Below are positions 24,761-63,761 of a DNA stretch of 64,000 bases, in pieces. The position numbers were made by a program, and so were the translations under genes. The DNA comes from Adineta ricciae (taxonomy: Eukaryota): contig CAJNOJ010000062.1 of NCBI GenBank assembly GCA_905250025.1, positions 237,974 through 301,973 on the forward strand. Reading direction: 5' to 3'. Within the stretch, counting starts at the first letter, position 1. The number at the start of each line of letters is the position of its first letter. A model generated the notes under the pieces. That model worked only from the letters and a program-made list of their open reading frames with translations, had not been told where the DNA came from and ran no database searches.

Positions 24761-25374
24761 TTATTCTTGGTCCTCGTCATCCTCTTCATCTTCTTCGTCT
24801 TCTTCACTTTCGTTGGCACCGGAAGCACCAGCAGCAGCTCTTCGAGAGTTGGTTTTTCCAGCAGATGCTTTCGAGTCTCCTAAAATGTCCATATCGTTTC
24901 AAATACCCTTCGCTAGAGAATTTTCTCTTTACCTTCTTCACCATCACCATTTTCTCCGGTATCTTCTTCGTAATCGCCGTCAGATCCGTCGTCGTCTTCG
25001 TCATAATCATCACCTTCTTGATCACCACCAGCTACCTGTAAAACCCAATGAAAAGATTGTCGAGATTTCCTACGATGTCCAAACAAGGCAAACTTACGTC
25101 GTCATCATCTTCATCTTCATCATCATGTAAATGATCATCACCATTCTTATGATTCGAAGATTCATCATCAACTGGTCCATCACCGTTTCTTCCATTGCGC
25201 GCAGCTTTTAAAGCCTTCAATTTCGATGGACTAATATCATCTAGTTCAGCTTCACGTTTTGTGCCTTGAAATGAAAATAAACTTTCAAATTAAACGAACG
25301 TCATTCACATCAACGGATCTACCTTTTGTAGCGGCTACAGTTGGTGCAGAAAGCGCATCGGTTGAATCAGCCAT
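24761..25374 (-). CDS. Small highly acidic (Asp/Glu-rich) protein of ~146 aa, 4 exons: 25323..25374, 25098..25264, 24933..25035, 24761..24879
   Basis: MADSTDALSAPTVAATKG…, followed by D/E-rich runs and ending …EDEEDEEDDEDQE. It has three short GT-AG introns, all in phase. It is prothymosin/nucleoplasmin-like in composition only. Confidence 0.55.
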
Positions 25375-26998
25375 TGATTAAGTTCAGTTATTTAACAAGA
25401 AGAAAATAGTAGTTGTGTAAATGTGCGAAGATAGATGGAAGAATCAAGTCGACATAGGCCCAAAGAGAGAGAATATGACAAGTAGCTATTTCTTCTCTTT
25501 CCTTTTCTTGCAGCGATTGCCGAGTGTGTATATGTGTACGACGTCGTCGTCTGTCCTCGTTCCTTTTATATGAAGCTATGTGTCTGTCCTTTTTACTGCT
25601 GCCGCCGTTCTTTGGCACATAGTCATGTAGCATAATGAGAGAGAAGAAAAATCTTCGTTCGTTCGTTCTCTATTTTCCACCAATCCATCGTGTTGATGTT
25701 AGTCGACAATGATGACGTTACACGGGCAGAATACATGGCAAACAATGGATTTTCTCTATATAGTCAAGAGAAAGCGACGGGCAAAGATGACGACAAGCAT
25801 AAACTGTGAATTGAATAACGTCAGTGCAAGCGAACAAATTTTATAATGTTTTCTTTAGCTCAAAGAATTTGGAAAGCAGCCATTTTCTTCATAATGTATA
25901 ATTGTAGCGAACAAAAACGTCGATATGCTCGTGAATGTGAACTTCTTTCTGCTATGATAGACAATGTCAGAGTTAAACTACGTGATCTCTGCGTGAAATA
26001 TCGAATACTATTCCTATACGGAGGGAAAATAGTGTATTGTAAGCGATCTGTTTTGTCTGTGTGTGTGTGCAGATAGAATATCGAACGAATGTTTTGATGT
26101 ACGTGTTCACCGACGTTATTCTTTCTCTTGTTAAAGTCAATCTACATTCAGGAGTGCTTCGGTATTGCCGAACATACTCAGCCACATTGCTTCACAGGAA
26201 AGATGAAACCTACTCAGATAGGATATGACCAAGTGAGCATCAGAGCATTATTGTATGTTGGTTAAAATGATAGTGTCTGTGTGAGATGTATTGAGAATTA
26301 CTTGTTCATTAAAACCATCTCTTGGAAGGGGAGCGTCTGAATTTTTTATCGGGATTACTATGATGAAAGGTGTATTTGCTCTAAGGATTAATATAACGCC
26401 TGTGTATAATACAATGCAGTCGATTGAGAATATTTAGCTAATTGGTATCTTGATGAGTTCATAAGTATGACAAATCATTTTTGATGATTGAATAATTGAA
26501 GAGATCTGTCCACTCGTCTATCTTGAAAACAATCTGCTCTACTAGCAATAATTCAGATATGATCCTATGGAAAGAAACAATTAACCAATCAAATATGTTC
26601 GATATCAAAGTACATTGATGTAGACTTGATTTCTCCTCCTTCCATGCCAGACAAGAAATGTGATTGATAAAATACGATAAATCATTAATAAATGTGGGAA
26701 TATCTCATTTCAAACATGTCTTTTTGTTCTACGTGTTGTTTTTATCTGAGAAGATGAACAAATAGATACATGTGCGGCAGATTCGATTCGCAGTTAGGTG
26801 TCATTTTCACATTGTCTTATTTGACCAATTGCTTCTCACACAGATGAACGGTTGTTGTCTGTCTATATATATGAAAACAAAGTTCAAAAAAAATTTTTCT
26901 GTATTTGAACAATAGATTTCATTTTCGAAAGAATGAATTTCACGCTCGATTTTATTCATATATATGAAGAAGTCTTAGAAAGTAGTTATTAGCACTTT

Positions 26999-27565
26999 TC
27001 ATTTGGTATTTGGACGGCGAATAGCATTGATAATTTCAGATGCTGAGGTATTACTCAGTTGCTTAACACCATTGTTATTCAATGATATGGATGATGTTGT
27101 AAGATTTGATGATGTTGGTCGCACTGGAACACGGAGAGTACTGTAGAGATTGGTAAACAATGAGGTTAGTAATAGTGGCGCTTGATTTTCTATAACATTG
27201 ATAAGTTTCTTGCCCACCTCGGGATTGAGCATTTCTTTCAGACCAGTGGACATGATCTGTCCAACGATAGTACCGAGACGATCTAACGGAAGAATAGAGA
27301 GAACTGTTGAGGCCGTATCGATTGTATCGAAACTGTTTTGTTGACGACGATTGCGAATTAAACGATCAGCCCAATGGTTCGACGTTCGATTTTTCTTGAA
27401 GAACATCGCATCAGTTCGATTTTCCTTCGGTTCTAAAATAACCATGTGGAATCAGTGAAAATAACTCGTCGAATCATTCTTACCAAAACTGCTCTGAGCT
27501 TGACAATGATCGATTGAAAGATGAAAAGCAAGTGTTGCTAAAATGCACAAACTTATTTTCATCAT
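26999..27565 (-). CDS. Small secreted protein (signal peptide), 2 exons: 27484..27565, 26999..27432
   Basis: Exon 1 is MMKISLCILATLAFHLSIDHCQAQSSF, a hydrophobic signal peptide, with a GTAAGA donor. Exon 2 joins in frame (EPKENRTDAMFFKK…) to the 148-aa ORF. No known domain. Confidence 0.5.
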
Positions 27566-28121
27566 TGTCGTTTTCACTGAAGATGAAAACGTATTTTGTT
27601 GTTGTTCTTATATAGATATCAGCTGTAGAGACAAGCAACCTCTTCATTGATAAATATGTACATTTTACAAGCCGATGGTAATTATATTATTATCGGAATA
27701 ACAAAGCTAGCTCACACTTTTTTAATCATCATCTATTGATCCAACACATGCAAATATATGTCAATGTATTAACATGATTATTTGATCGACAAAGACATCC
27801 GTTAACTTTTTCTTTCATTCGAATCGTAAGTGCAGAATGAGTAATTGATTATTATTTGTTCATCCTCACACCTCGCCAAATCCTTGGTATGATACACTCC
27901 AAGCGATTTTTCATTTGAATTCATGTCCTTATATTCGAATCGCGTAAGAAATTATGATCATTTGTAGATTGAAAGATCATTTCGACTTTATTTTCAAAAA
28001 CAGTTATAATCAAAACAAACGATATAACCTAAACAAAGTCTCGATGATTTCTTTTTTTTTCTTATTTCTTGTTCTTCTCAATAAGAAATGTGATCCGATG
28101 TTTATGTTGTAATTATTTCAT

Positions 28122-28838
28122 TTATTCACGTGGTACATCAACTTGGCCATTATCAATTTGGTTAATAATGTCATGTGGATGTGAACCTTCGACTTTACAG
28201 CCAACTGATTGAGCTGTGCCTAAATAAAACGAACCAAAGTAAACGAATCGATCAAGTCAGAAAACGTGCGTATACCAAGAATTTCTTTTACTGTTCCGTC
28301 GAATGTTTTGGCTAAGGATCGTACGCGCATAATTCGAGCGATTTTGTAGATTTCGTCGAGTGAAACATTACCGTCATGTTTAACTAAACAAGGAATCAAC
28401 TTCAGGGTTAATTCAAAGGAAAATTGAATGTTCGTACTATTTTTTTGTTTCTTTCGGTCACGTGGTGGTTCTTTAAGTGCTTTGATGACAAGCGATGATG
28501 CTGATGGAATGACATCAATCTTGGCATTACGATTTTGGACAGTTAACTTCACTGTAACACGCATGCCTTTCCAGTCACCTGTTGCTTTAGCGATATCATC
28601 ACCAACTTTTTTTGGTGACTAAATAAACAGAAGACATGAGATGCAAATGAACTGCGAACGTGACTTACGAGACCAAGAGGACCGATCTTTGGAGCTAATG
28701 ATGAGCCACCAGGTGCTTCACCTCCAGTAACACGGACCATTACTAAAGGTAAAGGATTGTAAGCATGGAAATAGATCAGTGAGAATCAGCAAGCGATTTA
28801 CTCTCGTATACGGCTGTTGGATCGAATTTTGGACCCAT
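28122..28838 (-). CDS. RPL12: 60S ribosomal protein L12 (uL11), 5 exons: 28802..28838, 28669..28742, 28438..28618, 28276..28383, 28122..28219
   Basis: The spliced 165-aa product [37 protein letters not shown]…[76 protein letters not shown] is collinear with eukaryotic RPL12. Introns are 55-59 nt. Confidence 0.9.
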
Positions 28839-29616
28839 GATACTTTTTTCGAGTGTTTAAAAATGAAAGATCTGCAAAGGAGAAATAATATTATTAGTAT
28901 TTACAAAACTTTCGTTGTTTCTTTCAAAATTGAATATCGATTTGTGATGAGGAACTACTATTTACCTCTAGTGTATGTATTTTATGGAATGCTTTACAGC
29001 GAATCATAATCTGCAAATGTCGATTTCAAGTAAAATATTTGTAGTTTATTTCCAAGTTTATCGATGATCTTTTCAAGTTTTTCTTTTTTCATATTTCAAA
29101 AAATAGGGTTGAGAGACTCTCTTAAATTTCGAATCCTGACATCTGATATAGATGTCGCTAGTTTATCACACCTGAAACTTCGATCTATTCGCTATACATT
29201 TTGCATGCGTCCTAAGAAGACGATAGGCAGGAAACGTGAAGGAAAATCTCCACTGGAGTTTACTTTTCATCACAAGGAAGAAAGTTGCCTTGGTTATATA
29301 TAAAGATCAACTCTTTGAATTAGGTATTATATACTGATGCATATACACGTGCAGCTAAAGCAATTCTTAGGAAAACAGCATGAAATGGATTAGCATTCTT
29401 TCGATCTCAATTATCGAACGACAAATTTTTCATCACGAATAGTCTGCAGGCAAAGTAAATCATAGGCACAAAATACTGAAATACATCAGAAGAAGGCAAC
29501 TAGTCCTATGATTAGATTTGTTCTCTTTGCTTATTTTGTACAACAGAAGCACAGCTGCTGTGTGCTGATATATGTCAAGTATTAATAAGGCTGCATGGAT
29601 GTTTGGGTGAACTGGA

Positions 29617-29904
29617 TTAAGGACGGGCAAAGACGGGGCGTGACAAAGAGGCTGAACGTTTAATTAAACAAACGTAATCAATTATGAAAGATACAATCGT
29701 GAAGAGCCATAATCCTTCACATGCTCGAGCTCTTCGAACGCAAAGAATGGACGGCTTATTCGAAGCTGAAACGATGTTTTGTAAGATGTTCCGATGATCT
29801 CTTTGCTTTACGTCGACTAATGAAGACAATTGCACAAAGTTGTCATTCAAATTCCAACTGAAGGTTTTCTCACTTCTTTCATATGACATCAGATGATAAA
29901 ACAA
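29617..29904 (-). CDS. Hypothetical 95-aa ORF
   Basis: Uninterrupted ORF with an ATG and no recognisable domain. Possibly a small organellar or ribosomal-type protein. Weak. Confidence 0.2.
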   Translation of the reverse strand: MFYHLMSYERSEKTFSWNLNDNFVQLSSLVDVKQRDHRNILQNIVSASNKPSILCVRRARACEGLWLFTIVSFIIDYVCLIKRSASLSRPVFARP

Positions 29905-30202
29905 GAAGGCCTTATATTTAATTACGTAGCTTGTTCATCATGAAAATTCATCATGCGAAGGGATACAAGAAATAATCAATTGGTTTAAGGTGAAAGTTTA
30001 TTTCAGTTATTTTTATCGGTACACTGCCTACAGAGTACTGAAATGAAGAAAGACGAGATATTAAGGAAATTAATTTTTTTTATTTGTCAATTATTTATTC
30101 ATTTCAGCGATACAAGAAAAGGCAGTAACTTTATTAATATTGAAGATCCTTTTGTTGTTCGAAGTACGTCTGTTTCTTCTTGCGTATGTCTTCAAGTAGT
30201 TT

Positions 30203-30760
30203 CTAACGCTTAAGATAAATCGAATTGACAATCTCATTCATCACTTCCATAGGTGGTTTATTTAGTTGTTTACGTTTTTTCAAAGTTTGGTGTCCTCCAG
30301 CATTATAAAACGATGATCGTTTGTTGAATGACACATCGGATGAACCATAGTCATCATCATCATCATCCGCATCTTGACTAAATTGTGTGAACCATTTTGG
30401 CACGATGACATCATTGACACGCGACATAAGAAACTGATTAGCATGCGTCCGTGGTTGTCCAAACCAGACGGATGATGATGGTGCAGAAATCTTTTGTTCC
30501 TGGACGGACGCTGAAGGTGATGACGATGCTGATGCCAATGAATCATACATAAATGCCTCGGAGTTCTCATTCATAGTATTGATTGATTGATGAGGAATTG
30601 ATGATGGTGTAGGTGAAGAGGAAACAGACGGTAAAATTGCAACGAAAAGAACAAATGTCGTACTAATCATCAAAAACTGTGAAAAAAAGGAATGCGAACC
30701 ATTTGAAAAAGGCCGTACGAGATTATATAAAAATGACTTGACGGAGGTTTTGTTTGCCAT
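30203..30760 (-). CDS. Hypothetical Ser-rich membrane-anchored/secreted protein (185 aa) with basic KR/KKRK sites; possible prepropeptide
   Basis: Single ORF with an N-terminal hydrophobic segment (ISTTFVLFVAILPSVSS), a Ser-rich region, an acidic DDDDDD run, and C-terminal dibasic sites (KKRK…KR). No homology recognised. Confidence 0.3.
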   Translation of the reverse strand: MANKTSVKSFLYNLVRPFSNGSHSFFSQFLMISTTFVLFVAILPSVSSSPTPSSIPHQSINTMNENSEAFMYDSLASASSSPSASVQEQKISAPSSSVWFGQPRTHANQFLMSRVNDVIVPKWFTQFSQDADDDDDDYGSSDVSFNKRSSFYNAGGHQTLKKRKQLNKPPMEVMNEIVNSIYLKR

Positions 30761-31704
30761 ATTGTAGATTGATTTTCTAACAGATTGAATAATTTAGAAA
30801 ATAATAGGACAGTTAGTTATCTAGAATAGAACGAAAGCGATTGTATAGTTCGTTTTACCGTGTCGTTCTATCTCTCTGTTCATTAGCTTGACAAGATTGT
30901 CAAGTTATTCCGAAGATTATTAAACATGATGGATAAGTATAATGCTTTTATATTATGAAAAAAAAAAGCTAAGTAGGCGGACAGATAATAGGAAAAAAAA
31001 CAATCTCTACCAATATGGCAACGACATTTAAACAAATCCAGACTTATGTTTATCGTATAATAAGATTGATTGAGTCGTTTTCGTTCGAGACAATCAACAA
31101 TACTGACGTGCACGACTTCTCTCGTCAACAATGTTATCTAACTGCATGGTTTTGTCAGAAAAGTAAATGTAATGATGAATCTGTTGAACATATAGTAAGA
31201 TGTGCAAGTAAAACGAGATGAAGAAGAAAATAAAATAGACTGTAAATCTTACCTACTCTGTATAAAAAGGACGTTAAATGGAAAAAGGAAAGAAAGGCAA
31301 GGAAAATTGTTTCTATCTGCAGTTATTTAATGAATGGGCAAGCACCTACATATATATATAGTGAAATTATATACGCTTCGTTGCCAGTCTTTTGTTTCAA
31401 ATGTTTAATATAATTTTAATATATGAAAAAAAAAGAAACAAACTAGATAAACATTACCGTACTTGCCTTTTCAAATGAACTTCTTGGTGTGATGAAGTTA
31501 AAGTAAAGAAGAAATTCTTCAATTTCACGTTAAGTACGACTAATTCATTGCATAACGGAAACGTTTCTTTTACATGCAACCGGTAATGAATTTCACCCAG
31601 TAAATGTTGTAGGATGATGACAAATACACGAATTATTTAAACATCACGTACTTATACGGAGTTTTTCTAGCCGTTCGAGAAATAGCTACAATCTTAATAG
31701 ACCC

Positions 31705-31730
31705 AGAGAGAGAGAGAGAGAGAAAGAGAA
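31705..31730. repeat. (GA)n microsatellite
   Basis: cagagagagagagagagagaaagagaag run. Confidence 0.8.
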
Positions 31731-32763
31731 GAGATTTTGATGTTCTTGACAATACCATGTTTCTACTTTTAGAACTATTTCAGAGAGAAAGAAAGTGAAG
31801 TCAAATCAATCAGATGATTTATAACAATTACCTGGCAATAAATTATTAATGGAAAAAATTATTATGTCAATATATATATATGAATATACGACAAATTGTA
31901 CTTGAGTTATGATTTTCAACGTAATGATTTGAAAACATGCGAGATTTCTAAGAACAAACTTTGTGTATTTTAGTTCGAAAAGAAGCATCAAATCGATTAA
32001 TTTACTTAACAGCAAAATCATAGTTTTTTTTTACATATGGTCTTTTTTTCTTTGAGTGGGTTGTATTTCGTCTGTTTTCTGCTATTCTTCGCGTGGATAC
32101 GCGTTCGATCGGAAGTCAGTTTTCCATTGACGTTGATATCAAATGATCAATTATGAAGTAACAATTTCTTGATTAAAGAAGACGTAAAACAGATCTTTCC
32201 TGAGTGTCATTTAAGGAATATTGAATTTCGGTAGACAACAAATATTGTTCACCAAGTAATCTTTACGATTTAATTAAAAGACAACCTTCAGCGCTAGAGC
32301 ATCCGGAAATTCAATGATAACTATATGAACTTGTTTCTATACTTTCTACGATGCAATTCACCACATCTACAATAAAAATTCAAGTAGAACGATAGGGATG
32401 TTCCCAAGTGAGCAAACGTCTTTCTTATTTAAGTTATAAAATGATTTGAAAAACTACGCACATTTCATTCTTAAATATAAAAACAGTAAATAAGTGAATT
32501 CTTGTAATTATGTGTAAGTGCTATTTGATGGATATATGATCAAATAGAGAGCACTTTCTGACTTCAAAAGAGCAGCTTCATCGTAATTAGAAAATCTATT
32601 GCTATTGACGTCAATCCGATTAGTTTCTCCGTGTTAAATAAAGTGGAAAGATTTTCAAGTCTATCATCAATGCAAATGTATTTATCAATCGTCCGCAAAT
32701 ATCATTCGTTGTGTATAAATAGAAAATATTCTCTCGAACGATTCGTTCTATACATTCATACTG

Positions 32764-34946
32764 ATGAAACTGATAAATCCGATTTTGTCTCGACATCATG
32801 TTGCACACATTCGTGCTTGGCTTAAATATAAATCAGATAATATCTTTGCCGCAGGACCTTTGGTTATCATTCCAACACTTGCATTAGTTTCCGTATGTCT
32901 TATACTACTCTTCTCATCATTGTATCTTTGGAGTGGAGAAGCTAATACATATTCACAATCATTATGGGAAACTTTTATGCGTACACTGGGTTAGAAGACG
33001 TTGTTGAAATTGAAACTGAGCATGCATAAGAACGTTCGTTTAGATCCGGGCTCGGCAGCTGAAGATACAGGTGGATTTCGTCGGTTTATTTCGGCGGCAG
33101 TGACAATGTGTGGTATTTTTATCATATCGACTTTAATTGGTGCATTGACAACAGGTATGGAGGGTAAATTAGCTGAGTTACGCAAAGGACGTACTCAAGT
33201 CATTGAAACGAACCATACAAGTAGGTCAATGCAATGTTCAAAAGCTCTTCTCTTCCGTCTTTGTTCTAGTTATACTTGGCTGGTCAGCAAAGATCTTCGA
33301 CATCATCAACGAACTAATCATTGCTAATGAGAATCAATCGAATCCATCGATTGTCATTCTAGCGTTAAAAGATCGAATTGAAATGCAGGAAATCATCTCA
33401 CAGAAAATCGATCGTAAGCATCACAATACACGAATTATCTGTCGAAATGGTGATCCGATGTGCATTCACGATCTGAACATTTTGTCACCAAACCAGGCTC
33501 GATCGATAATTATCCTCGCGCCGATGAATGACAATCCCGATGTGAGTGTGATCAAAACAATCCTAGCTATTACAAACAACCCACAGCGAACCAAATGCAA
33601 ATTTCATATCGTTGCAGAAATTAGAAAACGGAGTAATATTGAAGTGGCACGAATTGCAGGTAAAAGGTATGATCGGATACGACGACTTTGAGAAAAGCTA
33701 TTCTGTTAAGGTGCGGATGAAGTTGTTTTCGTACATGCTGATGAGATCATTGCGAGAATTATAGCACAAAGTGGACGGCAATCCGGCTTATCGATTATTC
33801 TATCAATGCTGCTTTCATTTAATTACAGTGAAATTTATTTTAAATTCGAACCGCTACTAGTTGGCAAAACGTTTCGCGAAATTCTATTTCTTTATCGGAC
33901 GAGTACCATTATTGGCATCATGTTCGCTGATGAAACAATCAAAATCTGTCCGTCACTGGATACAATCATTCAAGAAAATGATCAAATTATTGTTATTGCC
34001 GAAGATGATGATGCCATCCTCATACAAAGAAGTCCTTCTTTGCCTCACCCTTCAATTTCTGCCTTAGTTGAACAGGATGTTTTCATAGAACCATCTGATT
34101 CTATCAAACAAACTACTATTGAAAAGAATATCATTCTCGGCTGGAATTCCAAAGCGTCATTAATCGCCAAACAACTTGACAATTACGTATCTGCAGGAAG
34201 CGAATTACATATCTTAACAAACCTTGACAAAGCAACCAAGATCATTAGCGAACAGCTAGTCAATGAGCTGCAACAACAGAAGATCTACCTTCACTCGGGT
34301 GAAACAACTAGTCGAACTGATTTAGAAAAACTTAATCTGTAAATAAAACGAAGGTGATGGGGTAAACATGTCAGGATTATTCGTTATTTTTAGATATAAT
34401 TATCATGATGTTATTCTTCTTGCAAATGATATTAGCAATGAACGGAATCAACTCGACATGCCATCATCAGAAGCAGCCGATGCCGAATGCTTAATCTGTC
34501 TATTACATCTACGAAATATAATTGACAAAAATCCTCGACAGAAAACTTTCAGTATTGTTACAGAAATGTTCGATGTACGAAACCGTGAACTAGCTGAAAT
34601 CACACGTGCTGATGATTTCATTGTCAGTCCAAATATTCTCTCGAAGTACATCGCGCAAATAAGTGAAAATAAGAATTTAACGAAAGTCTTCGACGTTTTA
34701 CTGACAGCAGAAGGAGCAGAAATTTATCTTCGACCTGCTTGCTCATTTACAAAATTAGGTATTCCGGTGTCATTCAGTCGAATACTCCAAGCGTCAATCA
34801 AACAGCAAACGTTAGCCATCGGTTACCGACAAACAAAATATGCCCAAGATCCTAACAAATTCTATGGAATCGTCCTCAATCCTGATAAAGACATGTCCAT
34901 TATCTTCCGACAAGAGGATAAAATCATTGTCCTAGCAGAAGAATAA
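32764..34946 (+). CDS. CASTOR/POLLUX/DMI1-like ion channel (2-TM pore plus tandem RCK/Castor_Poll_mid-like domains, ~657 aa from this ATG), 5 exons: 32764..32989, 33044..33220, 33270..33659, 33711..34338, 34394..34946
   Basis: A TM helix, pore segment SLWETFMRTLDPGSAAEDTGG and inner helix, followed by LRKGRTQVIETNHTLILGWSAKIFDIINELIIANENQ…RIICRNGDPMCIHDLNILSPNQARSIIILAP…DQIIVIAEDDDAI…NIILGWNSKASLIAKQL…ELHIL…HDVILLANDIS…LAIGYRQ…DKIIVLAEE. This is collinear with the plant DMI1/CASTOR C-terminal region. All junctions are in phase and match the ORF-track frames. Additional 5' exons, with more TM helices, may lie in 32040..32760. Confidence 0.8.
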
Positions 34947-35685
34947 CTTCTGTCCTTCACACAACGCTTCCTGCTTACACTCTCTTTTCCAATAAACTAA
35001 CACCTAATAGAAAGTCAAGTGACATACCTGCCGAGTCTACCAATTGTTGTCCAGGCTAGCCAAATGTCAGAAGAAGAGAGATACATGTTTGTCTCAGATT
35101 ACTTCTAAAGATGACATACATCTGATCAAACACGGATCTGAGTTTTTCCTTCTTTTATATACTAGTCCTCCTGCATACATGCGAGATTACTCGATTGCAT
35201 GCGAGATTAATTGATCATCAACTATATGGCTTTTCATCTTTGATGAATTATTCAAATGAATTCATGTGCAAAACAACATTGAATTCAAGTACCGAATGTA
35301 TTCTTTTATGTTTATTGAAACTAATCAGCGTGGGTATGCGGAATACAGAATACCTAAATTGTTCGCATTTTTCTATGAATATTATTTATTTAGTTTCCGA
35401 AGATGAGTCTTGTGATCCTCGAAGCAAGCCATAACTGAGTGAGTGGATGGTTTTTTTTCTCTTGAAGCACTACGTATAACAAGAATTAATATAAAGAAAA
35501 TGAAAAAAAAAGAATCACAAAGATATTTTATTAAACCATTAATTTGAAATTTCAACGCTATAGACTTACTGTTAGCAGACATTGAGAAAGAAAAACAAAC
35601 AGAGAAACCAACAAACAGAGACGTTTTGCTAATTGAGAAGAGAAAGAAGGAGAAAAAAAAATCAAAGAAAACAAAACCGATTTGA

Positions 35686-37755
35686 TTACGATTGGATATC
35701 TTGTGTTTGTCGTTGTTCATTTAATAATTTATTTAATTCTTCCATGATTTTCCAATTACGTTGTCGCAATTGATCATTTTGAGCTTTCATATCATTTAGT
35801 TCATCTTGCAGTTTGATCAGGGATTTATTTGATTGATTCTTCATCAATTGATCGTACTTTGCTTTGATTTGTTCACATTGATGAATTTGACTTCTTAAAT
35901 CTTCACAATTTTTTTTCAATTCATCACGTTGCTCGACGATTTCTTCGATCTTCGTATTGGAAGTCTTTTCAAGTTCGGAATGTTTTTGACGAAGATTGGT
36001 TAGTTCTTTATCTAATTTGCGATATTTATTTATGTCAGCGATCATTTGTTCAAGTCGTTCTTGTTTCTGTGAATCAGCTAAAAGCATGAATCACTTGCGA
36101 AAGTACATATAATACCGTTCAAATGATTACCTTTCTTATAGATCTCAGCGGCATGTTTACTCGCACGTTCATTTTCAGCAACTTCATTTTGTAAAGCAGT
36201 GTTTTTGATCGTCATCTGACGAATTTTTTCCGTTAGAATATGCTGTTGTTGTTTCATATCGTTGATTGCTGCAGGAAGCATGGAATAAGCATGCAATTGC
36301 TGCTGTAATCGAGCATTTTCATCGGCTAAGCGTTGTATTTGCATTTGATACGATAAAATCATTTGTTGATATTGGACGACGTTTGTCGGTTGTTGTTGAA
36401 GTTGCCGAATGGTATTTTCCATTTCGCCGTTCGATTTCGTCAATTCGAAAACACGAGTCTTCTCTGTTTGCAATTCAATTGCGAGAATTTTTGCTTGACT
36501 ACGATATGTTTCGTCAAGGATACGTTCGAGTGTTTTCTCAGACTTTGTTACTGACAATAGACGTTGAATATCAGCTTTCGTCGAGTTGTGTCTAGAAGCG
36601 ATTTTGGTTAGAATTAAATCGAGTTCATCGGATGAAAATGCTGCTGTATCAAGAATTGACATTAGTTCATCGAGAACGCCATGAGATGCAGTTAAGGAAC
36701 GAACTAAATCAAGTCTTTGAAGAGATGATTCAGATCCGACCGACGTCGAATATATCGGACTTAAGGAATTACTAGCACCAGGTAACGGTGAATCTAAAGA
36801 GAAATATCATAAAATAGGTAAACGAAACAAGTTGTGTTCATGCAACTCGTCGATTATATCGATGAATATCCTTGACGAACGAGTGCATAAAATAATCTGT
36901 GTTCTATCTTTCGCGACCATCGAATATTTAGAACAAAAAGCGAAGATAGCTTTAACTAAGATTTTTACCTGTTACTACATCAGATTCGGATGAATAATCA
37001 TGATTCATTGATGATTCCTGCTGATGTTGATGTTGCTGCGGTTCGCAAGGATAGACGTATGCACTTGTTTGTTGATTATTTACATATTGTGGTACTTGCT
37101 GTTCTTGCTGATCCATTTGTTGAGGTGATGAAGGAACGAATTCATTAGGTCGTGCTGCTGAACCAGGTGGCAGAGAGCTCCTTTTCGAAGGAACTCTACC
37201 CTGTCGTTTGCGGAATTTCTGTGCGCTCAACTCGGCTTCTTTCTGTTGTCGTTGTTGTTGAAATCTTGGCGGCAGAGGATTGAATGCTGAATATGTGTAG
37301 AGATTGTAGGGTATCGGTGAATATCCATTCGTTTTTAAATGATTATCTTGTGAAGGTTTCGAATGTTGTGTCGATGATGGCGTTTGCTTAACGGGTGCAA
37401 CACTCGCTTGAGGTTTTATTGGAACAACTGATTCTTCTTTTCCTGATGGTGTAGTAGATGGTTTATCAGATAATTTTTGTTTACTACGTTGTTTAACAAA
37501 TGTCATCGGTTGTTGTTCGTCTTCGACGTGTATGGCAGTGTTCTCGGATTGTTGAACATTTGTGAAATCTTTTTCTCGAGATTCACTATCCGATTGTTCC
37601 ACCATGGATTCCTGTTCTTTGTCATTTACTGCTTCAGTGGCTGAAACGTCTTTTTCTCGTTCTTGTTGAACATGATTTTCGTCTGTTTTCGTTTCTTGTT
37701 TTTTTCGATTTGCATTTCTTCCGTTTTTTCGGCGATTTTTCGCATTACGATCCAT
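35686..37755 (-). CDS. Coiled-coil protein with a basic/low-complexity N-terminus (~613 aa), 3 exons: 36969..37755, 36131..36793, 35686..36077
   Basis: The three minus ORFs (267, 194 and 133 aa) join in phase through a GTAAAA donor and ctctttag acceptor, then a GTAATC donor and cttttag acceptor. The C-terminal ~350 aa are heptad-rich (LQQQ…, LEQMIADINKYRKLDKELTNLRQKHSELEK…). No specific family recognised. Confidence 0.6.
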
Positions 37756-39012
37756 TTCGTGGAATCACTGTTACTAATTAAAACTCGTTAATTAACCTAA
37801 AAAAGAAACAAATATGATCGTATTTCTTACTAGTACATCCTACTATAATCACTACGTCCATCGAGAAACCAGCTGACTATGTGACTGTCATCGCTTTTGT
37901 CTTTATCTATAACGATAAACACGCATATAAAATATCATGCTTTGATCGATGTCTTTTTATTTACAGTGTGCTCAACTGTGACGACAAAGAAAAAAAGAAG
38001 CGAAAATGAAGAGAGAAGGAAAGAAAACTTGAACGAATACAGAAGAAAATATATCTACCCACGCTTACGAAATTATGAAGTAAGAGAGATGAGAGTAATG
38101 AATGCGTAACAGCAAACGTGCGACGTTGCGTTATAAAAGTGAGAAAAAAAAAGGCAGTGACATGTACATATTTTTAGGTAGGCGAAAGAAAGAAAGAAAG
38201 AAAAACGATAATCATGAAGGAAGTACAGGGAAAGCGAAATGAGATTGTTAACTCTTGAACCAACCGTTTCTTTTCGTTTGTTTACATAAGTTTTAAATAA
38301 AAAATGAAACAAGGAACTGATCGAACTAGAATAAACAACGGCATTCGAACTGAAGCATTGTGAAGCGCACAAAGACTCAGCGAATTCGATTAACGAATAC
38401 TTCATGATCAGATAAAAGTTTTCTCTGTATTTTTCCAATTCGAACAACATGCTAGTATTTGCTTCTTCTTGCATCTGTAAGATATTACAAAGAAACGATT
38501 GTCTACTATTGTCAAGGTATGGTAGAACAATAATCCCGTTTGAATTAGTAACAATTTCTTCCTGTCTGGCAGGCTGTAAATTTCATCGATTTAAAATGTG
38601 CCTTTCAATGTCGGTGAAAGGTTGTCATGTCAAATGTGGCTTTTGTTTTTCTCAGTGCTTTTCCTTTTATTCGTTCGAACCATAATTGCAAAAACGTTTT
38701 GTTTCCTTTAATCATCACACACATATACTTGCCAGATTTCATTGTAACACGAAAAACAAATAATTCAGATATATCGAATCCTTGAAAATGGAAAAAAAAC
38801 AAGCACAAAACAATAAGAGAGAAAAATAGAAGCATGGAGAACATTCAAAAAAAACACATTCGAAATTAATTTTATGAGAACTTATCTGTAAAAAAACAAA
38901 CGTAAGAAAAACTTTGTTAACGACTTTATTTAAACACAAAAAATACGTTTCTTTGTTTTTGTATATATATATGTCAATGTCGTCAAACAAAAGATGGAAC
39001 AAAAAATGATGA

Positions 39013-42000
39013 TTAAACTCCATAATGAATTTGAAGACGTTGTTTTAATGGTACAGGAAATCGGTCTGTTAGTTGTTTCCATTGCTCAACCCCGAATTCT
39101 TGTTTGAATGAATGCAGAATATCGCGAAATTTTGCATGCAGCTCCATCGGAGGCTTTTCCCACGATGCAATCGCATCACACACATATATAAAATCATTAG
39201 TAACACCTAATGGATTTAACACAATCATATTACATATACCACGGAAAGCAGAATCTTTTTCATCATTATCACGTATGTTACGCAAGGCTACACACCACGG
39301 ACGTATGAAGCGTGCTAGTTGAGATGAAACGTCAGTTGGACAGACCAGACCTAAACGTCCAATGGTGATTGCGGTGTTTTCTAGAAGAGTTTTCGGCGTA
39401 TTGTTTCGATTGACGATCATGATCAATGATTCGAGAATAACCGATACAAATGGCTGAATTTCAGCGCCGATTTGTATGGCTATTTCGCCGATCGCCCATA
39501 TTGCATTGTTACATACGCTAACATGATGGGGATTCAGATTTTGAGTTAATAATGGAAGAAAAAAGTTTAAGTGTTTTCGAACGTGATGAAAGCAAGCTTT
39601 TGTTAAATCACCTAGTAATGCAAAGGAACTTTGACGAACTTCAGCCATAGGATCTTGAGCACAACGTTCGAGTAATGAGAGAAGGTTCGATTGTTCAACA
39701 AGCGAATCAATATTTGAACCTAAGCAAAGAAAATTTGTCGATTTTAATCTTGAACGAAGAAATTATATATACCAAGTCCTTCTGCTAAACCTGACAGCAG
39801 ATCCAGTGCAACAATCATAAAGTCTTTATCTAATTGAGAGTCTGTTCCGTTTGCTTCTAATGTTTGTTGAACTAAAACAATGCATCGAACAAAAACCGGT
39901 TCACAATACGGGAAGAATCCTGTTTGTAATGCGGTTGCGATTGATGAAAGGCATTCGAGTAAAGGAAAAAGATCTTTATCATCGTTTCTCAAAGCATTCC
40001 AACGGTCAATCAATGGCGGCATGAGTAATTGAATGTAATCTGGACGATTCAAATGTGTGCCAACGCTATCCGCCAACGTGCCGATCGCATCGTAGAGAAT
40101 TAGCAAGTTTTTCGCTTGATATTTACGGAAAGCGTGTACCAAGGTTTCGAGAATTTGTTTCAAGTAAGGAACCATCTGTACGCATGCTTCTTCTTCTAAT
40201 GTCGCAAATGCACTGCAAGCAGCTTCTTGAACCTAGAAAGTCGATTGAGTGAGTTAATTGTGACGGATGGAAACAAACGCCTACTTTTTTATTAGCATCT
40301 AGAATGCGTTTTAACAATTCAGACATTAATGGAATAAGGAATTTGTTTTGTTCAACTTCGTTATGCACAACCCATGTTGAATATCTTGACAATGTCCAAC
40401 ATGTAATTGAACGAACTAATGGCTTCTTATCGTTCAGACATTTGATTAGATAATCGACTAGGTCAGGTAAATGTGGAGTTAGACCGTACGTGCAACCTTC
40501 AGCGATAGCACCTAACACAAGTATGCCACTTTCTTTGATTTGCCAATCGCTATGAAATAACATTTCACGTAGTATTGGCAACAGAATAGGTAGAATGGTT
40601 TCACGAAAGACATTTGAAAGGATATCTAATGCAGCTGCTGAACATTTACGTAGATTCCATTCAGTTGCCTGGTCAGTACTGACGCCTAAAGATAGAGAGG
40701 CAAAGTTTTCTATTAGATAGGATGTATATTCAAATCGAACCTGATTCATCGTCGTCGTCATCATCTTCGTCATCATCGTGTTGCAGGTGTTGATCCGTTT
40801 GACTGTTGGCTGGCGTTGAATTGTTATTTGTGTCGGTTGCGTTATTCGGTTGACTAGTTCCATCATTGTCATCCAATAAATTCGGTGCATGCTGTCGCGT
40901 ACGTGCTCGATGGAATCGCGGACGAATATCTTCGATTCGGTCGGGTATGTGTTCATCTTCATCAATATCACCTTGTAGAATAATCACATCTATTTCTGAA
41001 TATTTCATGTTTTTACAAAGAATAGGCAAGAGTTTATCCAGGTATGGCTGCAGAACATCTCGACAGATAGGTTGATCAGCAATCATCAGCCAAAATTCGC
41101 ATGCTTCTAGCGCAACAGTATCGTCTGCATCTTGGGATGTAAGCAGCATGTATTCGATAATTTGTTGCATATGTGGAATTAACCGCTCGATGCGAACTTC
41201 GATTAACATAACCAATGCTCGACAAACATGCTTCCGTACGTCCGAATCCGTATCGTTAGCTAGTTGAAAGAGGTTTTCAAGAAATAGATCAATGTTTGAC
41301 ATTAAAGCAGTTGCACGTGGTGTAATAAATTCGTTGACACAGCTAGAACGAAAAAAAACGTCCAGATTAGTGCTGTTTTGCTTTCCATTCTCTAATGAAA
41401 ATTCGTGAACTCCTTGGTGAATTAAGATCTTTACTGAAAAATTTCCCTAGTGACACTTTTTCTTTGTGAACTATCAGTACATAAAAGCCTTACGCAATGG
41501 CATGTGATCGAATTTTCGGATGTGAATGAAGGAAGAATTGAATAAACTTTGGTATGAGAACATTCAATGGCTGTGATGGAGCATTTTCCAATTGATCGGC
41601 ACTGTCTTCGCACACTTTCTGCAATGCTCCAAATGCGCCTTCACATAGATTAACATCTGGTGAATCCAGACATGAATAGAGATGTTCCAATAGTGTTGGC
41701 CATTGTTCCAGTGAACCTTTCGTCACAATAGTTGTGATCAGTATGCCAACAGTTGCACGAATCAATGGTGAACGGTCTCCTAATGCTGATATACATTCTT
41801 GTTTGATGTACGATCGAACATCGTCGGGAAATTTCTCGTAGTGTGATTTGGCATTATTCTTTAGAATTAAGCCCGACAATGATCGAGTGGCTTCTTGTTC
41901 GTCGAGTAACTTGGTTAAGATATAAACCAGATATTTGTTAAAATCAGGGTATTGATTTAGTGACTCTAGACGTGCTTGAACTTGTCGTTGTATTTGTGTA

Positions 42001-42074
42001 TCGGGTGATTGCGACTGGCGTAATAGAGTTAAGATTTGTTGAAGATCGTCAACTTGTCCTGGTTGCCAACTCAT
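39013..42074 (-). CDS. TNPO1: Transportin-1 / karyopherin beta-2 (~916 aa), 5 exons: 41494..42074, 40741..41342, 40285..40685, 39773..40232, 39013..39719
   Basis: Collinear with human TNPO1 from [29 protein letters not shown]… through the acidic H8 loop ([11 protein letters not shown]), …[18 protein letters not shown]…[15 protein letters not shown]…[16 protein letters not shown]…[20 protein letters not shown]… to …QRLQIHYGV. All junctions are in phase with the ORF-track frames. Confidence 0.9.
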
Positions 42075-42933
42075 GTTATATTTACAGAAGATAAAATGTT
42101 GTCTCTGATGAGCTTTCCTTGTGAACGTTCTCTTTTTGACTAGATGAGATGAAAATAAGCAGAAAATCAATATCGCTGTGAAAATAGAAAAGAAGAGGAA
42201 AATAATCAAATAAATATACTCCGCTTTACATATGATTCAGCAATTTATAGATGTCGCTTCAAAATTCGATATTCTCGAAAATTTTTCTTTGTCGAAGAAA
42301 AGCATAATTTTTTGATTTCATATGAAATTTTAATTCGAGATGACACTTTTCGAAAAAGAAAGCGACGCGGTTTATTGATTGGTGAAGTCTTTTACCAGAA
42401 TCCCTCGGCCATCTTGAAATGCCACCATCGAAGAAAATTGATTTATCTCTTTTCTTCGTTCTCTACGCTCGAATGATTTGTAAGTAAAAGAAAAAGTAAC
42501 GAACAGAACTATGTTACATTTTCGATTCTAACAATTTTGTTTAGATGTTAACAGTGACAAGTACTTAATTAAATTGCTTTTGGTAAGAAAAAAACGTAAT
42601 TAAAACGTTCGAAAGATTTGTACGAAGTCATTTTTTGTGTAATTACACGTGAGAAATCAAAATTTTTCTTGATGATGTCCTTCCGTCCGAAGATATAAAA
42701 AACGAGGTGGAGTTTGTGTACCGCCATTGAAAATTGCAAGGCAATAAGAGAAGGATTAGTTCAGGAAAGTGTATGTCATAATTAGATTACAGCTGCCAGC
42801 ATGAATTATCAGAATGGGAAAGCCTATATCTCAAGGTTGAGAGGATCAAATCATACGTCAAGTTGTTTTCTATGGGCTTCATGTTTATCATCGTGAATAT
42901 TGATTTGGATTGTTTGTAGGAACTTATTTAATC

Positions 42934-61665: not shown

Positions 61666-63761
<2,096 letters not shown>

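What the first reader, a model, noticed from the sequence alone, without database searches (positions are those of the whole stretch)
32764..34946. CASTOR/POLLUX/DMI1-like cation channel in a metazoan-type genomic context
The spliced product has a K-channel-like pore (pore helix and filter-like DPGSAAEDTGG segment, then an inner helix). It continues collinearly with the RCK and 'Castor_Poll_mid' region of plant nuclear-envelope channels DMI1/CASTOR/POLLUX: LRKGRTQVIETNHTLILGWS…, …IIVIAEDDDAI…, …ILGWN…SELHIL…, …LAIGYRQ…IIVLAEE.

To my knowledge this family is characteristic of plants, algae and prokaryotes (MthK relatives), not animals. Here it has four in-phase GT-AG introns and sits between an AT-rich spacer and the coiled-coil gene.

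It is either a horizontal acquisition or a rarely retained ancient eukaryotic channel.
Basis: partly seen in the sequence, partly recalled or inferred. Interest (0 to 1): 0.7.

Follow-up and report, generated by a model that had tools for sequence, protein, structure and literature searches.

The report
Bacterial-type CASTOR-like channel in a rotifer
This is a real, intact, spliced gene for a CASTOR/POLLUX-family cation channel in the genome of a bdelloid rotifer (Adineta), inherited from a bacterial gene that the ancestor of bdelloids picked up by horizontal transfer, which is a well-known habit of these animals.

Summary
Five exons (32764-34946, + strand) joined by four GT-AG introns of 49-55 nt encode a 657-aa protein with two transmembrane helices, a pore helix, an acidic filter (TLDPGSAAED) and two tandem RCK domains. 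It matches Pfam Castor_Poll_mid (2e-28) and LjCASTOR (1e-56).

The window comes from a bdelloid rotifer. It is collinear at 92.5% with an Adineta ricciae contig and syntenic with A. vaga.

The nearest non-rotifer relatives are bacterial, not plant. Intronless ~630-aa proteins from many bacterial phyla match end to end at 42-47% identity. Plant CASTOR/DMI1 is only 25-29% identical and has extra N-terminal helices.

In an NJ tree the rotifer sequences are monophyletic (100%). They split into two paralogue groups, each present in Didymodactylos, Adineta and Rotaria. A 100% split places them with bacteria and away from plants.

One intron position is shared by both paralogues. dN/dS is 0.06-0.08 and base composition matches the host.

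Verdict: an ancient, domesticated bacterial gene acquired before crown bdelloids diverged. It most likely forms a tetrameric, divalent-cation-gated, non-K+-selective cation channel. This is a new member of a known kind, since about 10% of bdelloid genes are foreign. Interest is moderate to low. No extra upstream TM exons exist.

The parts
32764..34946 (+). Complete gene (ATG to TAA) of the 657-aa CASTOR-like channel. Exons: 32764-32989, 33044-33220, 33270-33659, 33711-34338, 34394-34946.
   Evidence: The same exon structure is found in A. ricciae L001 and A. vaga L002.
32990..33043 (+). Intron 1 (54 nt, GT..AG, phase 1). It splits the codon of filter Asp76.
   Evidence: Conserved in position in Adineta orthologues.
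33221..33269 (+). Intron 2 (49 nt, phase 1) at NHT|IILGWS.
   Evidence: The position is shared with paralogue B (A. vaga P0023) and with Didymodactylos, so it was gained before the duplication and before crown bdelloids.
33660..33710 (+). Intron 3 (51 nt, phase 1) at IA|GADE.
   Evidence: Shared with the Didymodactylos orthologue.
34339..34393 (+). Intron 4 (55 nt, phase 2) at KLN|LYNY.
   Evidence: Shared within Adineta.
32857..32931 (+). Outer transmembrane helix TM1 (aa 32-56).
   Evidence: AlphaFold helix 32-56. Hydropathy peak.
32950..32988 (+). Pore helix (aa 63-75, YSQSLWETFMRTL).
32989..33072 (+). Filter segment DPGSAAEDTG (aa 76-85; the span includes intron 1).
   Evidence: D76 and D83 are invariant among the 22 rotifer and bacterial sequences of A1. 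D76 aligns with the essential filter Asp265 of LjCASTOR (PMC6697748).
33073..33156 (+). Inner helix TM2 (aa 86-113).
33211..34033 (+). RCK1 (aa 132-372; the span includes introns 2 and 3). Contains the Pfam Castor_Poll_mid match (aa 276-367 = 33743-34018) and the conserved Ca(II)/Ca(III)-type ligands E305, D363, D364.
34115..34943 (+). RCK2 (aa 400-657; the span includes intron 4).
32714..32721 (+). TATAAATA, 43 nt before the ATG, inside a block (32660-32724) that is 78% conserved with A. vaga. Probable core promoter (inferred).
34991..34996 (+). AATAAA polyadenylation-type signal, 45 nt after the stop codon (inferred).
32014..32198 (.). Conserved non-coding block upstream (70% identity to A. 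vaga, with exactly conserved 10-14-mers). It is not an exon. Possibly a cis-regulatory module of this gene or of its divergent neighbour.

Best explanation
**Origin.** The gene descends from a bacterial 2-TM, double-RCK 'CASTOR/POLLUX-related' cation channel. It entered the germ line of an ancestor of bdelloid rotifers by horizontal transfer, before Philodinavidae, Adinetidae and Philodinidae diverged.

**Domestication.** After transfer it acquired spliceosomal introns, host base composition, and probably a TATA promoter and a polyadenylation signal. It duplicated once into paralogue groups A (this gene) and B. It has been kept under strong purifying selection since.

**Mechanism (inferred from homology).**
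- Four subunits form a pore from TM1, pore helix, filter and TM2.
- The filter TLD76PGSAAED83 lacks the K+ signature TVGYG and presents rings of carboxylates. The channel should therefore conduct cations non-selectively or prefer divalents, as LjCASTOR does.
- The eight RCK domains form a cytoplasmic gating ring that opens the pore when a small ligand binds.
- That ligand is most likely Ca2+ or another divalent cation bound at the conserved cluster-II site (E305, D363, D364).

**Shown versus inferred.** Shown here: gene structure, family, bacterial affinity, age, duplication, selection, monomer fold. Inferred: tetramer formation, ion selectivity, ligand, membrane location and physiological role.
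For: **Identity of the organism.** The window is collinear with A. ricciae contig CAJNOR010001590.1 over 17 kb at 92.5%. Against that copy, dS is 0.19 and CDS divergence is 5.1%, close to published A. ricciae homologue values (Ks 0.135-0.14, median 4.55%; PMC5916493). Synteny with A. vaga chromosome CP075493 covers Beta_elim_lyase, uL11, the channel and an importin-beta family gene annotated TPR_IPO5.

**Bacterial affinity.**
- The best non-rotifer hits are 42-47% identical over 97-98% of the length, about 630 aa.
- A scan of GTDB genomes kept 80 loci from Bacteroidota, Chloroflexota, Gammaproteobacteria, Ignavibacteria, Acidobacteriota, Leptospiraceae and others, matched over about 1.9 kb each.
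- The closest hits lie in compact contigs and translate as one uninterrupted ORF.
- The alignment runs end to end, from LKYKSDN to IIVLAEE.
- Plant and algal CASTOR-type sequences are 25-29% identical to the window protein.

**Tree.** Rotifers are monophyletic at 100%. Group A has 99% and group B 100% support, and each contains Didymodactylos, Adineta and Rotaria. The split {rotifers + main bacterial clade} versus {plants + other sequences} has 100% support. Two sequences on the plant side, P0240 and P0226, lie on compact, intronless MAG contigs and look bacterial.

**Not contamination.** There are four introns. An intron position is shared across paralogues and families. CDS GC is 0.38 and GC3 0.32, against a window GC of 0.36. 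The gene is linked to animal genes.

**Functional constraint.** dN/dS is 0.082 against the A. ricciae copy and 0.061 against A. vaga. Differences fall at codon positions 1, 2 and 3 as 13, 11 and 76.

**Architecture.** There are two hydrophobic peaks only. The AlphaFold model has pLDDT 88.5 and pTM 0.82. Foldseek gives the CASTOR/DMI1 gating rings at TM 0.87-0.90, then Slo1 and GsuK.

**Filter and ligand sites.** D76 aligns with CASTOR D265, whose D265N mutant is dead. E305, D363 and D364 correspond to CASTOR E493, D553 and D554 and are identical in all rotifer, bacterial and plant sequences examined.
Against: - The tree is neighbour-joining on 623 columns. The bacterial sample is biased towards the best hits, so the rotifer clade appears as sister to that sample rather than nested inside a named phylum. 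No donor lineage can be named.
- Absence from other animals rests on their absence from the top 120 hits of one search. It is not a dedicated search of monogonont, seisonid or acanthocephalan genomes.
- No bacterial member of this subfamily has been characterised, to my knowledge. All functional inference is borrowed from plant CASTOR/DMI1, whose ion selectivity is itself disputed (K+-permeable versus Ca2+-selective; PMC6697748, PMC8644588).
- The Ca(I) site ligand (CASTOR D442) is K254 in this copy. It is Q in the twin, E in the other rotifer group A sequences and most of group B, and D in most bacteria. Its plant partner residues H463, R589 and R590 are absent. Gating may therefore differ from CASTOR.
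- No expression data were available.
Confidence: 0.85

Rival explanations
1. An ancient eukaryotic channel inherited vertically, retained only in bdelloids (and, separately, in green plants) and lost in all other sampled animals and protists.
For: The family does occur in one other eukaryotic group, Chloroplastida (PMC8644588). The rotifer clade has a fairly long stem and is not nested inside a specific bacterial phylum in the NJ tree.
Against: - Rotifer proteins are 42-47% identical to bacterial ones but only 25-29% to plant and algal ones.
- The 100% split groups rotifers with bacteria and against plants. Apparently bacterial sequences sit on the plant side too, so eukaryotes are not monophyletic.
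- The architecture is the bacterial 2-TM form, not the plant form with extra helices.
- No EukProt or other animal protein appears in the top 120 hits.
- This reading would need very many independent losses.
Confidence: 0.04
2. Transfer from a plant or green alga, as the CASTOR/POLLUX/DMI1 name suggests, rather than from a bacterium.
For: The best solved-structure matches are plant proteins. That is only because no bacterial member of this subfamily appears among the solved structures matched.
Against: - Identity to plants and algae is about 18 points lower than to bacteria.
- The filter is the bacterial type (T/A)xD(P/A)G(T/S), not the plant AD(S/A)GNHA.
- The plant N-terminal extension is missing.
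- The tree has a 100% split separating rotifers from plants.
Confidence: 0.02
3. Bacterial contamination or an assembly chimera, not a gene of the animal.
For: The protein is bacterial in type. Bdelloid assemblies have had contamination debates in the literature (title listed).
Against: - There are four spliceosomal introns without which the ORF is broken.
- The same locus and neighbours occur in three independent assemblies, including a chromosome-scale A. vaga assembly at 10.09 Mb of an 18.1-Mb chromosome.
- GC content matches the host.
- Flanking genes are animal genes.
Confidence: 0.01
4. A decaying relic of a transfer (pseudogene or non-functional passenger).
For: Many foreign genes in bdelloids are not expressed or are decaying. 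The acidic residue at the Ca(I) position is replaced by K254 here.
Against: - The ORF is intact in every species examined.
- dN/dS is 0.06-0.08 over dS up to 1.2.
- Pore and ligand-site residues are invariant.
- Splice sites and an upstream promoter block are conserved.
Confidence: 0.03
5. Same origin, but a different mechanism: a K+ channel or K+-uptake regulator gated by nucleotides or NAD(H), as in the TrkA/KtrA-type RCK proteins whose names databases attach to it ('potassium transporter TrkA', 'Kch').
For: Weak Pfam TrkA_N and TrkA_C matches. MthK similarity at 5e-6. Plant PEC1/2 and early CASTOR work report K+ conductance (PMC8644588).
Against: - There is no TVGYG filter. The aligned segment is TLDPG, with an Asp in place of the Gly.
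- The first beta-alpha turn reads ILGWSAK, not the dinucleotide-binding GxGxxG (read directly from the sequence).
- The divalent-binding carboxylates of CASTOR cluster II are invariant.
Confidence: 0.2

Closest known systems
Bacterial 'CASTOR/POLLUX-related putative ion channel' proteins (about 620-650 aa, 2 TM + 2 RCK; e.g. P0031 from MAG GCA_054920135.1, P0051 Bacteroidales, P0094 Ignavibacteriae, P0098 Leptospiraceae)
   Same: - End-to-end collinear at 42-47% identity, with similar length and the same Pfam set.
- Same filter type, xLD(P/A)G(T/S)xxxD.
- Same invariant RCK residues.
- Same side of the 100% split in the tree.
   Different: - The rotifer gene has four introns, host GC content and eukaryotic promoter and polyA-type signals.
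- It has Ser79 where most bacterial sequences have Thr.
- It has G where bacteria have the conserved Trp after the filter (GW to GG).
- It has K254 at the Ca(I) position, where most bacteria have Asp.
- To my knowledge these bacterial proteins are themselves uncharacterised.
Plant CASTOR / POLLUX / DMI1 (SYM8) and plastid PEC1/2 (PDB 6O6J, 6O7A, 6O7C, 7VM8)
   Same: - Castor_Poll_mid domain and a tandem-RCK gating-ring fold (TM 0.87-0.90).
- A filter Asp aligned with the essential D265.
- Ca(II)/Ca(III) ligands E493, D553 and D554 conserved as E305, D363 and D364.
   Different: - Only 25-29% identical.
- Plants have four TM segments and a long N-terminal region, and the filter AD(S/A)GNHA.
- The plant Ca(I) network (D442, H463, R589, R590) is absent here.
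- Different clade in the tree.
- The plant role in symbiotic nuclear Ca2+ spiking has no counterpart in an animal.
MthK, GsuK and animal Slo1/BK channels (RCK-gated K+ channels)
   Same: A 2-TM pore (or pore module) followed by RCK domains that form a ligand-binding ring. Detected by sequence for MthK (5e-6) and by fold for Slo1 and GsuK.
   Different: - Those channels have the TVGYG K+ filter.
- MthK has a single RCK per chain, and Slo has a voltage sensor.
- Only 14-16% identical (Slo1 and GsuK).
Other horizontally acquired, domesticated genes of bdelloid rotifers (about 6-12% of genes; PMC5916493, PMC4632278, PMC11258130)
   Same: It meets the published criteria: non-metazoan best hits, introns, linkage to metazoan genes, and clan membership with non-metazoan orthologues. 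It is ancient and shared across bdelloid families.
   Different: Most highlighted bdelloid foreign genes are enzymes (carbohydrate metabolism, NRPS/PKS, stress proteins). I found no report of this ion-channel family in rotifers.

Membership tests
Pfam Castor_Poll_mid superfamily (CASTOR/POLLUX/DMI1-like channels, all kingdoms) | Castor_Poll_mid domain above the gathering score | tested here: met
   98.7 bits against a cut-off of 26.7, E = 2.3e-28.
Pfam Castor_Poll_mid superfamily (CASTOR/POLLUX/DMI1-like channels, all kingdoms) | Pore module followed by two tandem RCK domains with the CASTOR gating-ring fold | tested here: met
   AlphaFold pLDDT 88.5. Foldseek to 6O7C, 6O6J and 7VM8 at E 1e-40 to 1e-42, TM (target) 0.88-0.90. 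Ring assembly itself was not tested.
Plant CASTOR/POLLUX/DMI1 proper | Four predicted TM segments with a long N-terminal region | tested here: not met
   Only two hydrophobic peaks. The N-terminus is collinear with 2-TM bacterial proteins. No upstream coding exon exists.
Plant CASTOR/POLLUX/DMI1 proper | Filter AD(S/A)GNHA with an essential Asp (D265) | tested here: inconclusive
   The Asp is conserved (D76), but the motif is TLDPGSA, which is the bacterial type (PMC6697748).
Plant CASTOR/POLLUX/DMI1 proper | Groups with Chloroplastida sequences in a phylogeny | tested here: not met
   A 100% bootstrap split places it with bacteria and away from plants and algae.
Plant CASTOR/POLLUX/DMI1 proper | Gating-ring Ca2+ sites Ca(I), Ca(II), Ca(III) | tested here: inconclusive
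   Ca(II)/Ca(III) side-chain ligands are conserved (E305, D363, D364). Ca(I) D442 is K254 here, and partner residues H463, R589 and R590 are absent.
Plant CASTOR/POLLUX/DMI1 proper | Nuclear-envelope or plastid-envelope location and a role in Ca2+ spiking | not testable with these tools
   No localisation or physiology data.
Bacterial 2-TM CASTOR/POLLUX-related channels | About 620-650 aa, N-to-C collinear, 2 TM + pore + 2 RCK, filter xLD(P/A)G(T/S)...D | tested here: met
   42-47% identity over 97-98% of the length. D76 and D83 are invariant among the 22 rotifer and bacterial sequences of A1.
Bacterial 2-TM CASTOR/POLLUX-related channels | A curated NCBIfam model hit | tested here: not met
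   No NCBIfam family at E <= 0.1. The name seen on bacterial hits comes from the source records.
Bdelloid horizontally acquired genes (criteria of PMC5916493) | Best hits non-metazoan, with no closer metazoan orthologue outside bdelloids | tested here: met
   After the rotifer hits, every named hit among the top 120 is bacterial. This is limited to that list.
Bdelloid horizontally acquired genes (criteria of PMC5916493) | Introns present and physical linkage to genes of metazoan origin | tested here: met
   Four introns. Neighbours include uL11, an importin-beta family gene, a CNG channel with a CLZ domain and a rhodopsin-type GPCR.
Bdelloid horizontally acquired genes (criteria of PMC5916493) | Clan membership with non-metazoan orthologues in a tree | tested here: met
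   NJ tree with 100 bootstraps. A maximum-likelihood tree was not run.
Canonical K+ channels (MthK, BK) | TVGYG selectivity filter | tested here: not met
   There is no TVGYG. The filter segment reads TLDPG. Its residue-by-residue correspondence to TVGYG rests on the MthK sequence as I recall it, not on an alignment printed here.

The most novel reading that the evidence does not exclude
Bdelloid rotifers may be the only animals that use a CASTOR-type, divalent-gated, Ca2+-permeable channel. After capture from a bacterium it duplicated into two lineages with different filters: DPG(S) in group A and DPC(A) in group B. The two could have distinct conductances. They may have been recruited into a bdelloid-specific physiology, such as ion and osmotic control during desiccation and rehydration, or Ca2+ signalling. 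This would be a foreign ion channel wired into animal excitability or signalling.
Probability: 0.25. Interest if true: 0.55.

Novelty: new member of a known kind. Interest (0 to 1): 0.3.

Why it matters
- It adds an ion channel to the list of bacterial genes that bdelloid rotifers have domesticated. That list is dominated by enzymes.
- The transfer is old, predating the crown-bdelloid radiation. The gene gained introns, duplicated and has stayed under strong constraint, so the animal evidently uses it.
- For channel biology, it offers an animal-expressed representative of a bacterial subfamily that, to my knowledge, is uncharacterised and sits between MthK-like and plant CASTOR/DMI1 channels.
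- The natural filter variants (DPGS versus DPCA) could help settle what the acidic CASTOR-type filter selects for.
- It does not change any general principle, because massive horizontal transfer into bdelloids is already established.

Tried and rejected
- A genome-contig scan with the single protein found nothing. It had to be repeated with an alignment.
- NCBIfam gave no family.
The 96%-identical A. ricciae twin P0001 was modelled instead.
- Rfam on 30700-35700 found nothing meaningful. The only hit was RAGATH-30 at 23 bits against a 59.5-bit threshold.
- Literature and supplement searches for CASTOR, POLLUX, PF06241, TrkA or RCK in rotifer papers found nothing.

**Ideas rejected.**
- Extra N-terminal TM exons in 32040-32760. 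The hydrophobic-looking frame there is not conserved as protein: 40% aa against 70% nt identity, 1-nt indels, and the candidate GT donor is not conserved in A. vaga.
- Naming a donor phylum. The best hits from at least six phyla are all within 42-47% identity.
- Contamination, plant origin and pseudogene status. See the rival explanations.

**Limitation.** Only a neighbour-joining tree was possible with the available software.
Full report
**1. The observation**

Reading 31500-35800 and translating the three forward frames shows an open frame that jumps between frames at four short GT..AG intervals. Joining 32764-32989, 33044-33220, 33270-33659, 33711-34338 and 34394-34946 gives a 1974-nt CDS and a 657-aa protein. 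The introns are 54, 49, 51 and 55 nt, in phases 1, 1, 1, 2.

Unspliced, the frame stops immediately after each donor. An in-frame stop lies 17 codons upstream of the ATG, and AATAAA lies 45 nt after the TAA.

**2. Family**

- Pfam gives Castor_Poll_mid (2.3e-28, 98.7 bits against a cut-off of 26.7), Slo-like_RCK (9e-9), TrkA_C and a sub-threshold TrkA_N.
- Against solved structures, the best sequence matches are LjCASTOR (1.2e-56), MtDMI1 (3.3e-48) and then MthK (about 5e-6).
- The spliced window protein could not be submitted, so an AlphaFold model was built for its 96%-identical A. ricciae twin P0001 on a 100-sequence alignment. The model is confident (pLDDT 88.5, pTM 0.82).
- The model shows an N-terminal helix, TM1 (32-56), a pore helix (63-75), a short filter segment, a long TM2 and linker (86-123), and two Rossmann-like RCK domains.
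- Foldseek finds the CASTOR and DMI1 gating rings first (E about 1e-42 to 1e-38, target TM 0.85-0.90), then Slo1/BK channels and GsuK.
- Hydropathy shows exactly two membrane-spanning peaks.

**3. Whose genome**

The best protein hit is Adineta ricciae (96%, also 657 aa). It is followed by A. vaga (88%), A. steineri (85%), Rotaria species (83%) and Didymodactylos carnosus (71%).

The A. ricciae contig carrying that protein aligns to window 22717-39614 in a single 17-kb block at 92.5% identity. The gene's dS of 0.19 and 5.1% CDS divergence are close to published values for the two homologous copies within A. ricciae (Ks 0.135-0.14, median 4.55%; PMC5916493). The window is therefore the other homologous copy, or a very close strain.

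The A. vaga chromosome-scale assembly has the same neighbours: Beta_elim_lyase, uL11, the channel and an importin-beta family gene annotated TPR_IPO5. The locus is at 10.09 Mb of an 18.1-Mb chromosome.

Elsewhere the window encodes plainly animal genes: a CNG channel with its CLZ leucine zipper, a rhodopsin-family GPCR, an importin-beta family gene and malic enzyme.

**4. Where the gene came from**

After the rotifer hits, every named hit among the 120 best is bacterial. These hits are 42-47% identical over 97-98% of the query and are about 620-650 aa long.

A 22-sequence alignment shows collinearity from the first conserved motif (LKYKSDN versus bacterial LRYRFDN) to the last (IIVLAEE versus IIVLAED). 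There are no gaps at any of the four exon junctions.

A scan of one genome per GTDB species kept 80 loci at 40-46% identity, matched over about 1.9 kb each. They come from Bacteroidota, Chloroflexota, Gammaproteobacteria, Ignavibacteria, Acidobacteriota, Leptospiraceae, Gemmatimonadota and others. The two closest hits lie in compact, intronless contigs.

Plant and algal CASTOR-type proteins, retrieved with the LjCASTOR soluble domain, are only 25-29% identical to the window protein.

An NJ tree (623 columns, 100 bootstraps) gives these results:
- Rotifers are monophyletic at 100%.
- Two paralogue groups, A (99%) and B (100%), each contain Didymodactylos, Adineta and Rotaria.
- The split {rotifers + 25 bacterial sequences} versus {plants, algae and a few other sequences} has 100% support.

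Two of the sequences on the plant side (P0240, P0226) lie on compact, intronless MAG contigs and look bacterial. Plant and rotifer genes are therefore not each other's relatives within eukaryotes. This contradicts a shared ancient eukaryotic origin and fits two independent acquisitions from bacteria.

**5. Age and domestication**

Mapping annotated proteins back to their loci shows the following:
- All four introns sit at identical positions in the window, the A. ricciae copy and A. vaga.
- The phase-1 intron at NHT|(I/V)ILGWS is also present in A. vaga paralogue B and in Didymodactylos.
- The IA|G(A/G)DE intron is also present in Didymodactylos.

At least one intron therefore predates both the A/B duplication and the divergence of the three sampled bdelloid families.

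CDS GC (0.38) and GC3 (0.32) match the host, whose window GC is 0.36. dN/dS is 0.082 against the A. ricciae copy and 0.061 against A. vaga at dS 1.2. Seventy-six of 100 differences fall at third positions.

Contamination, recent transfer and pseudogene status are thereby excluded.

**6. Upstream region**

It does not.
- The protein already starts where the bacterial proteins start.
- The A. ricciae model uses the same ATG, and the A. vaga model begins at the homologous position with a slightly longer N-terminus.

Comparison with A. vaga finds two conserved blocks. The first, 32660-32724 (78%), contains TATAAATA at 32714, 43 nt before the ATG. It is probably the core promoter.

The second, 32014-32198 (70%), has exactly conserved 10-14-mers but also 1-nt indels. 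Its amino-acid identity is 40% in the best frame, and its only GT candidate is not conserved. It is non-coding. There is no Rfam match.

**7. Likely mechanism**

In the pore, the rotifer segment WETFMRTLD76PGSAAED83TGG aligns with bacterial W..LMRTLD(P/A)GT..GD.GW and with plant W..WTFVADSGNHAD.

D76 falls on LjCASTOR D265. Kim et al. propose this residue as the key to Ca2+ selectivity, and its D265N mutant carries no current (PMC6697748). The K+ signature TVGYG is absent. D76 and D83 are invariant among the 22 rotifer and bacterial sequences of A1.

In the ring, the side-chain ligands of CASTOR's Ca(II) and Ca(III) sites (E493, D553, D554) are E305, D363 and D364 here. They are identical in every rotifer, bacterial and plant sequence examined.

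The Ca(I) ligand D442 is D in most bacteria and E in the other rotifer group A sequences and most of group B. It is K254 in this copy and Q in its twin. The plant partner residues H463, R589 and R590 are not shared.

The first RCK turn reads ILGWSAK, not GxGxxG, so dinucleotide binding is unlikely (read directly from the sequence).

My best reading is a tetrameric 2-TM cation channel with a carboxylate-lined, non-K+-selective and possibly Ca2+-permeable filter, opened by divalent cation binding at the conserved cluster-II cleft of RCK1. Tetramer formation, selectivity, ligand, membrane location and physiological role are inferred, not shown.

Group B paralogues carry DPC(A) instead of DPG(S) in the filter, which hints at functional divergence.

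**8. Comparison with what is known, and novelty**

The gene works like, and belongs to, the broad Castor_Poll_mid family. It fails the tests for the plant CASTOR/POLLUX/DMI1 subfamily on TM number, filter motif, Ca(I) network and tree position. It fits the bacterial 2-TM subfamily.

It meets the published criteria for a bdelloid horizontally acquired gene (PMC5916493). In that group about 6-12% of genes qualify.

Public records already carry automatic names for the rotifer proteins: 'CASTOR/POLLUX/SYM8 ion channel conserved domain-containing protein', 'DMI1' and 'Potassium transporter TrkA'. I found no paper or supplement that discusses this family in rotifers.

It is therefore a new member of a known kind. 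It is interesting as a domesticated foreign ion channel, but expected in this organism.

**9. Limits**

- The tree is NJ only, and the bacterial sampling is biased to best hits.
- No donor lineage is resolved.
- Absence from other animals is inferred from one ranked hit list.
- There are no expression data.
- The structure model is of the 96% twin and is monomeric.

Noticed in passing
window 32014-32198 (A. vaga L002 9060-9239): A conserved non-coding block about 570-750 nt upstream of the channel ATG. It is 70% identical between Adineta species, although synonymous sites in the neighbouring channel CDS are saturated (dS 1.2). It has exactly conserved motifs (TTTGAGTGGG, ATCGGAAGTCA, GTTGATATCAA, AACAGATCTTT). 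It is not coding and has no Rfam match. It could be a shared regulatory module of the divergent gene pair.
   Followed up: partly
window 32660-32724: A second conserved upstream block (78% identity to A. vaga) containing a perfect TATAAATA at 32714-32721, 43 nt before the ATG.
   Followed up: partly
window 22717-39614 versus L001 (A. ricciae CAJNOR010001590.1): A single collinear 17-kb alignment at 92.5% identity. The window appears to be the second homologous copy (haplotype) of this A. ricciae region, or a very close strain.
   Followed up: yes
paralogue group B (P0012, P0015, P0017, P0022, P0023, P0025, P0026): All group B rotifer paralogues have the filter (I/V)LDPCAAA(E/D/H)D. A Cys replaces the Gly that is otherwise conserved in bacteria and in group A.
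   Followed up: partly
L003 11781-14128 (A. vaga CP075492): The A. vaga group B paralogue sits about 3.6 kb from a large PKS-like gene (ketoacyl-synt, Acyl_transf_1, PP-binding, TauD). This is the kind of foreign biosynthetic gene described in PMC11258130.
   Followed up: no
window residue K254 (codon in exon 3): At the position of CASTOR's Ca(I) ligand D442, this copy has Lys and its 96% twin has Gln. The other rotifer group A sequences and most of group B have Glu, and most bacteria have Asp. This looks like a lineage-specific loss of that acidic ligand in A. ricciae.
   Followed up: partly
L004 6001-9709 (Didymodactylos carnosus P0009): The public gene model has a 56-nt first exon, a 1736-nt intron and no TM1. 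The N-terminus is probably mis-annotated rather than truly truncated.
   Followed up: no
P0013, P0014 (Rotaria sp. Silwood1, 980 aa): These group B models also carry PF05721 (precomputed Pfam hit). This may be a gene-model fusion or a real domain fusion.
   Followed up: no
window 11108-12990, minus strand: Exons of a typical animal cyclic-nucleotide-gated channel (Ion_trans 3e-15; CLZ leucine zipper 7e-20). The window therefore holds both a native channel gene and a foreign one.
   Followed up: partly
window 59103-60536, minus strand: Two ORFs (220 aa and 256 aa) lie in the same frame, separated by a single stop codon. The upstream one has weak nucleotidyltransferase (Polbeta/NTP_transf_2) similarity, below Pfam thresholds. 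It could be a pseudogene, a readthrough, or another foreign-gene candidate.
   Followed up: no
window 31709-31733: A short (GA)n microsatellite in the AT-rich spacer.
   Followed up: no
window 49972-51066 (+), 39013-42209 (-), 63240-63761 (+), 23192-23914 (-): Other genes in the window: a rhodopsin-family GPCR, an importin-beta family gene (IBN_N, HEAT repeats), a malic enzyme exon and a Beta_elim_lyase family gene.
   Followed up: partly
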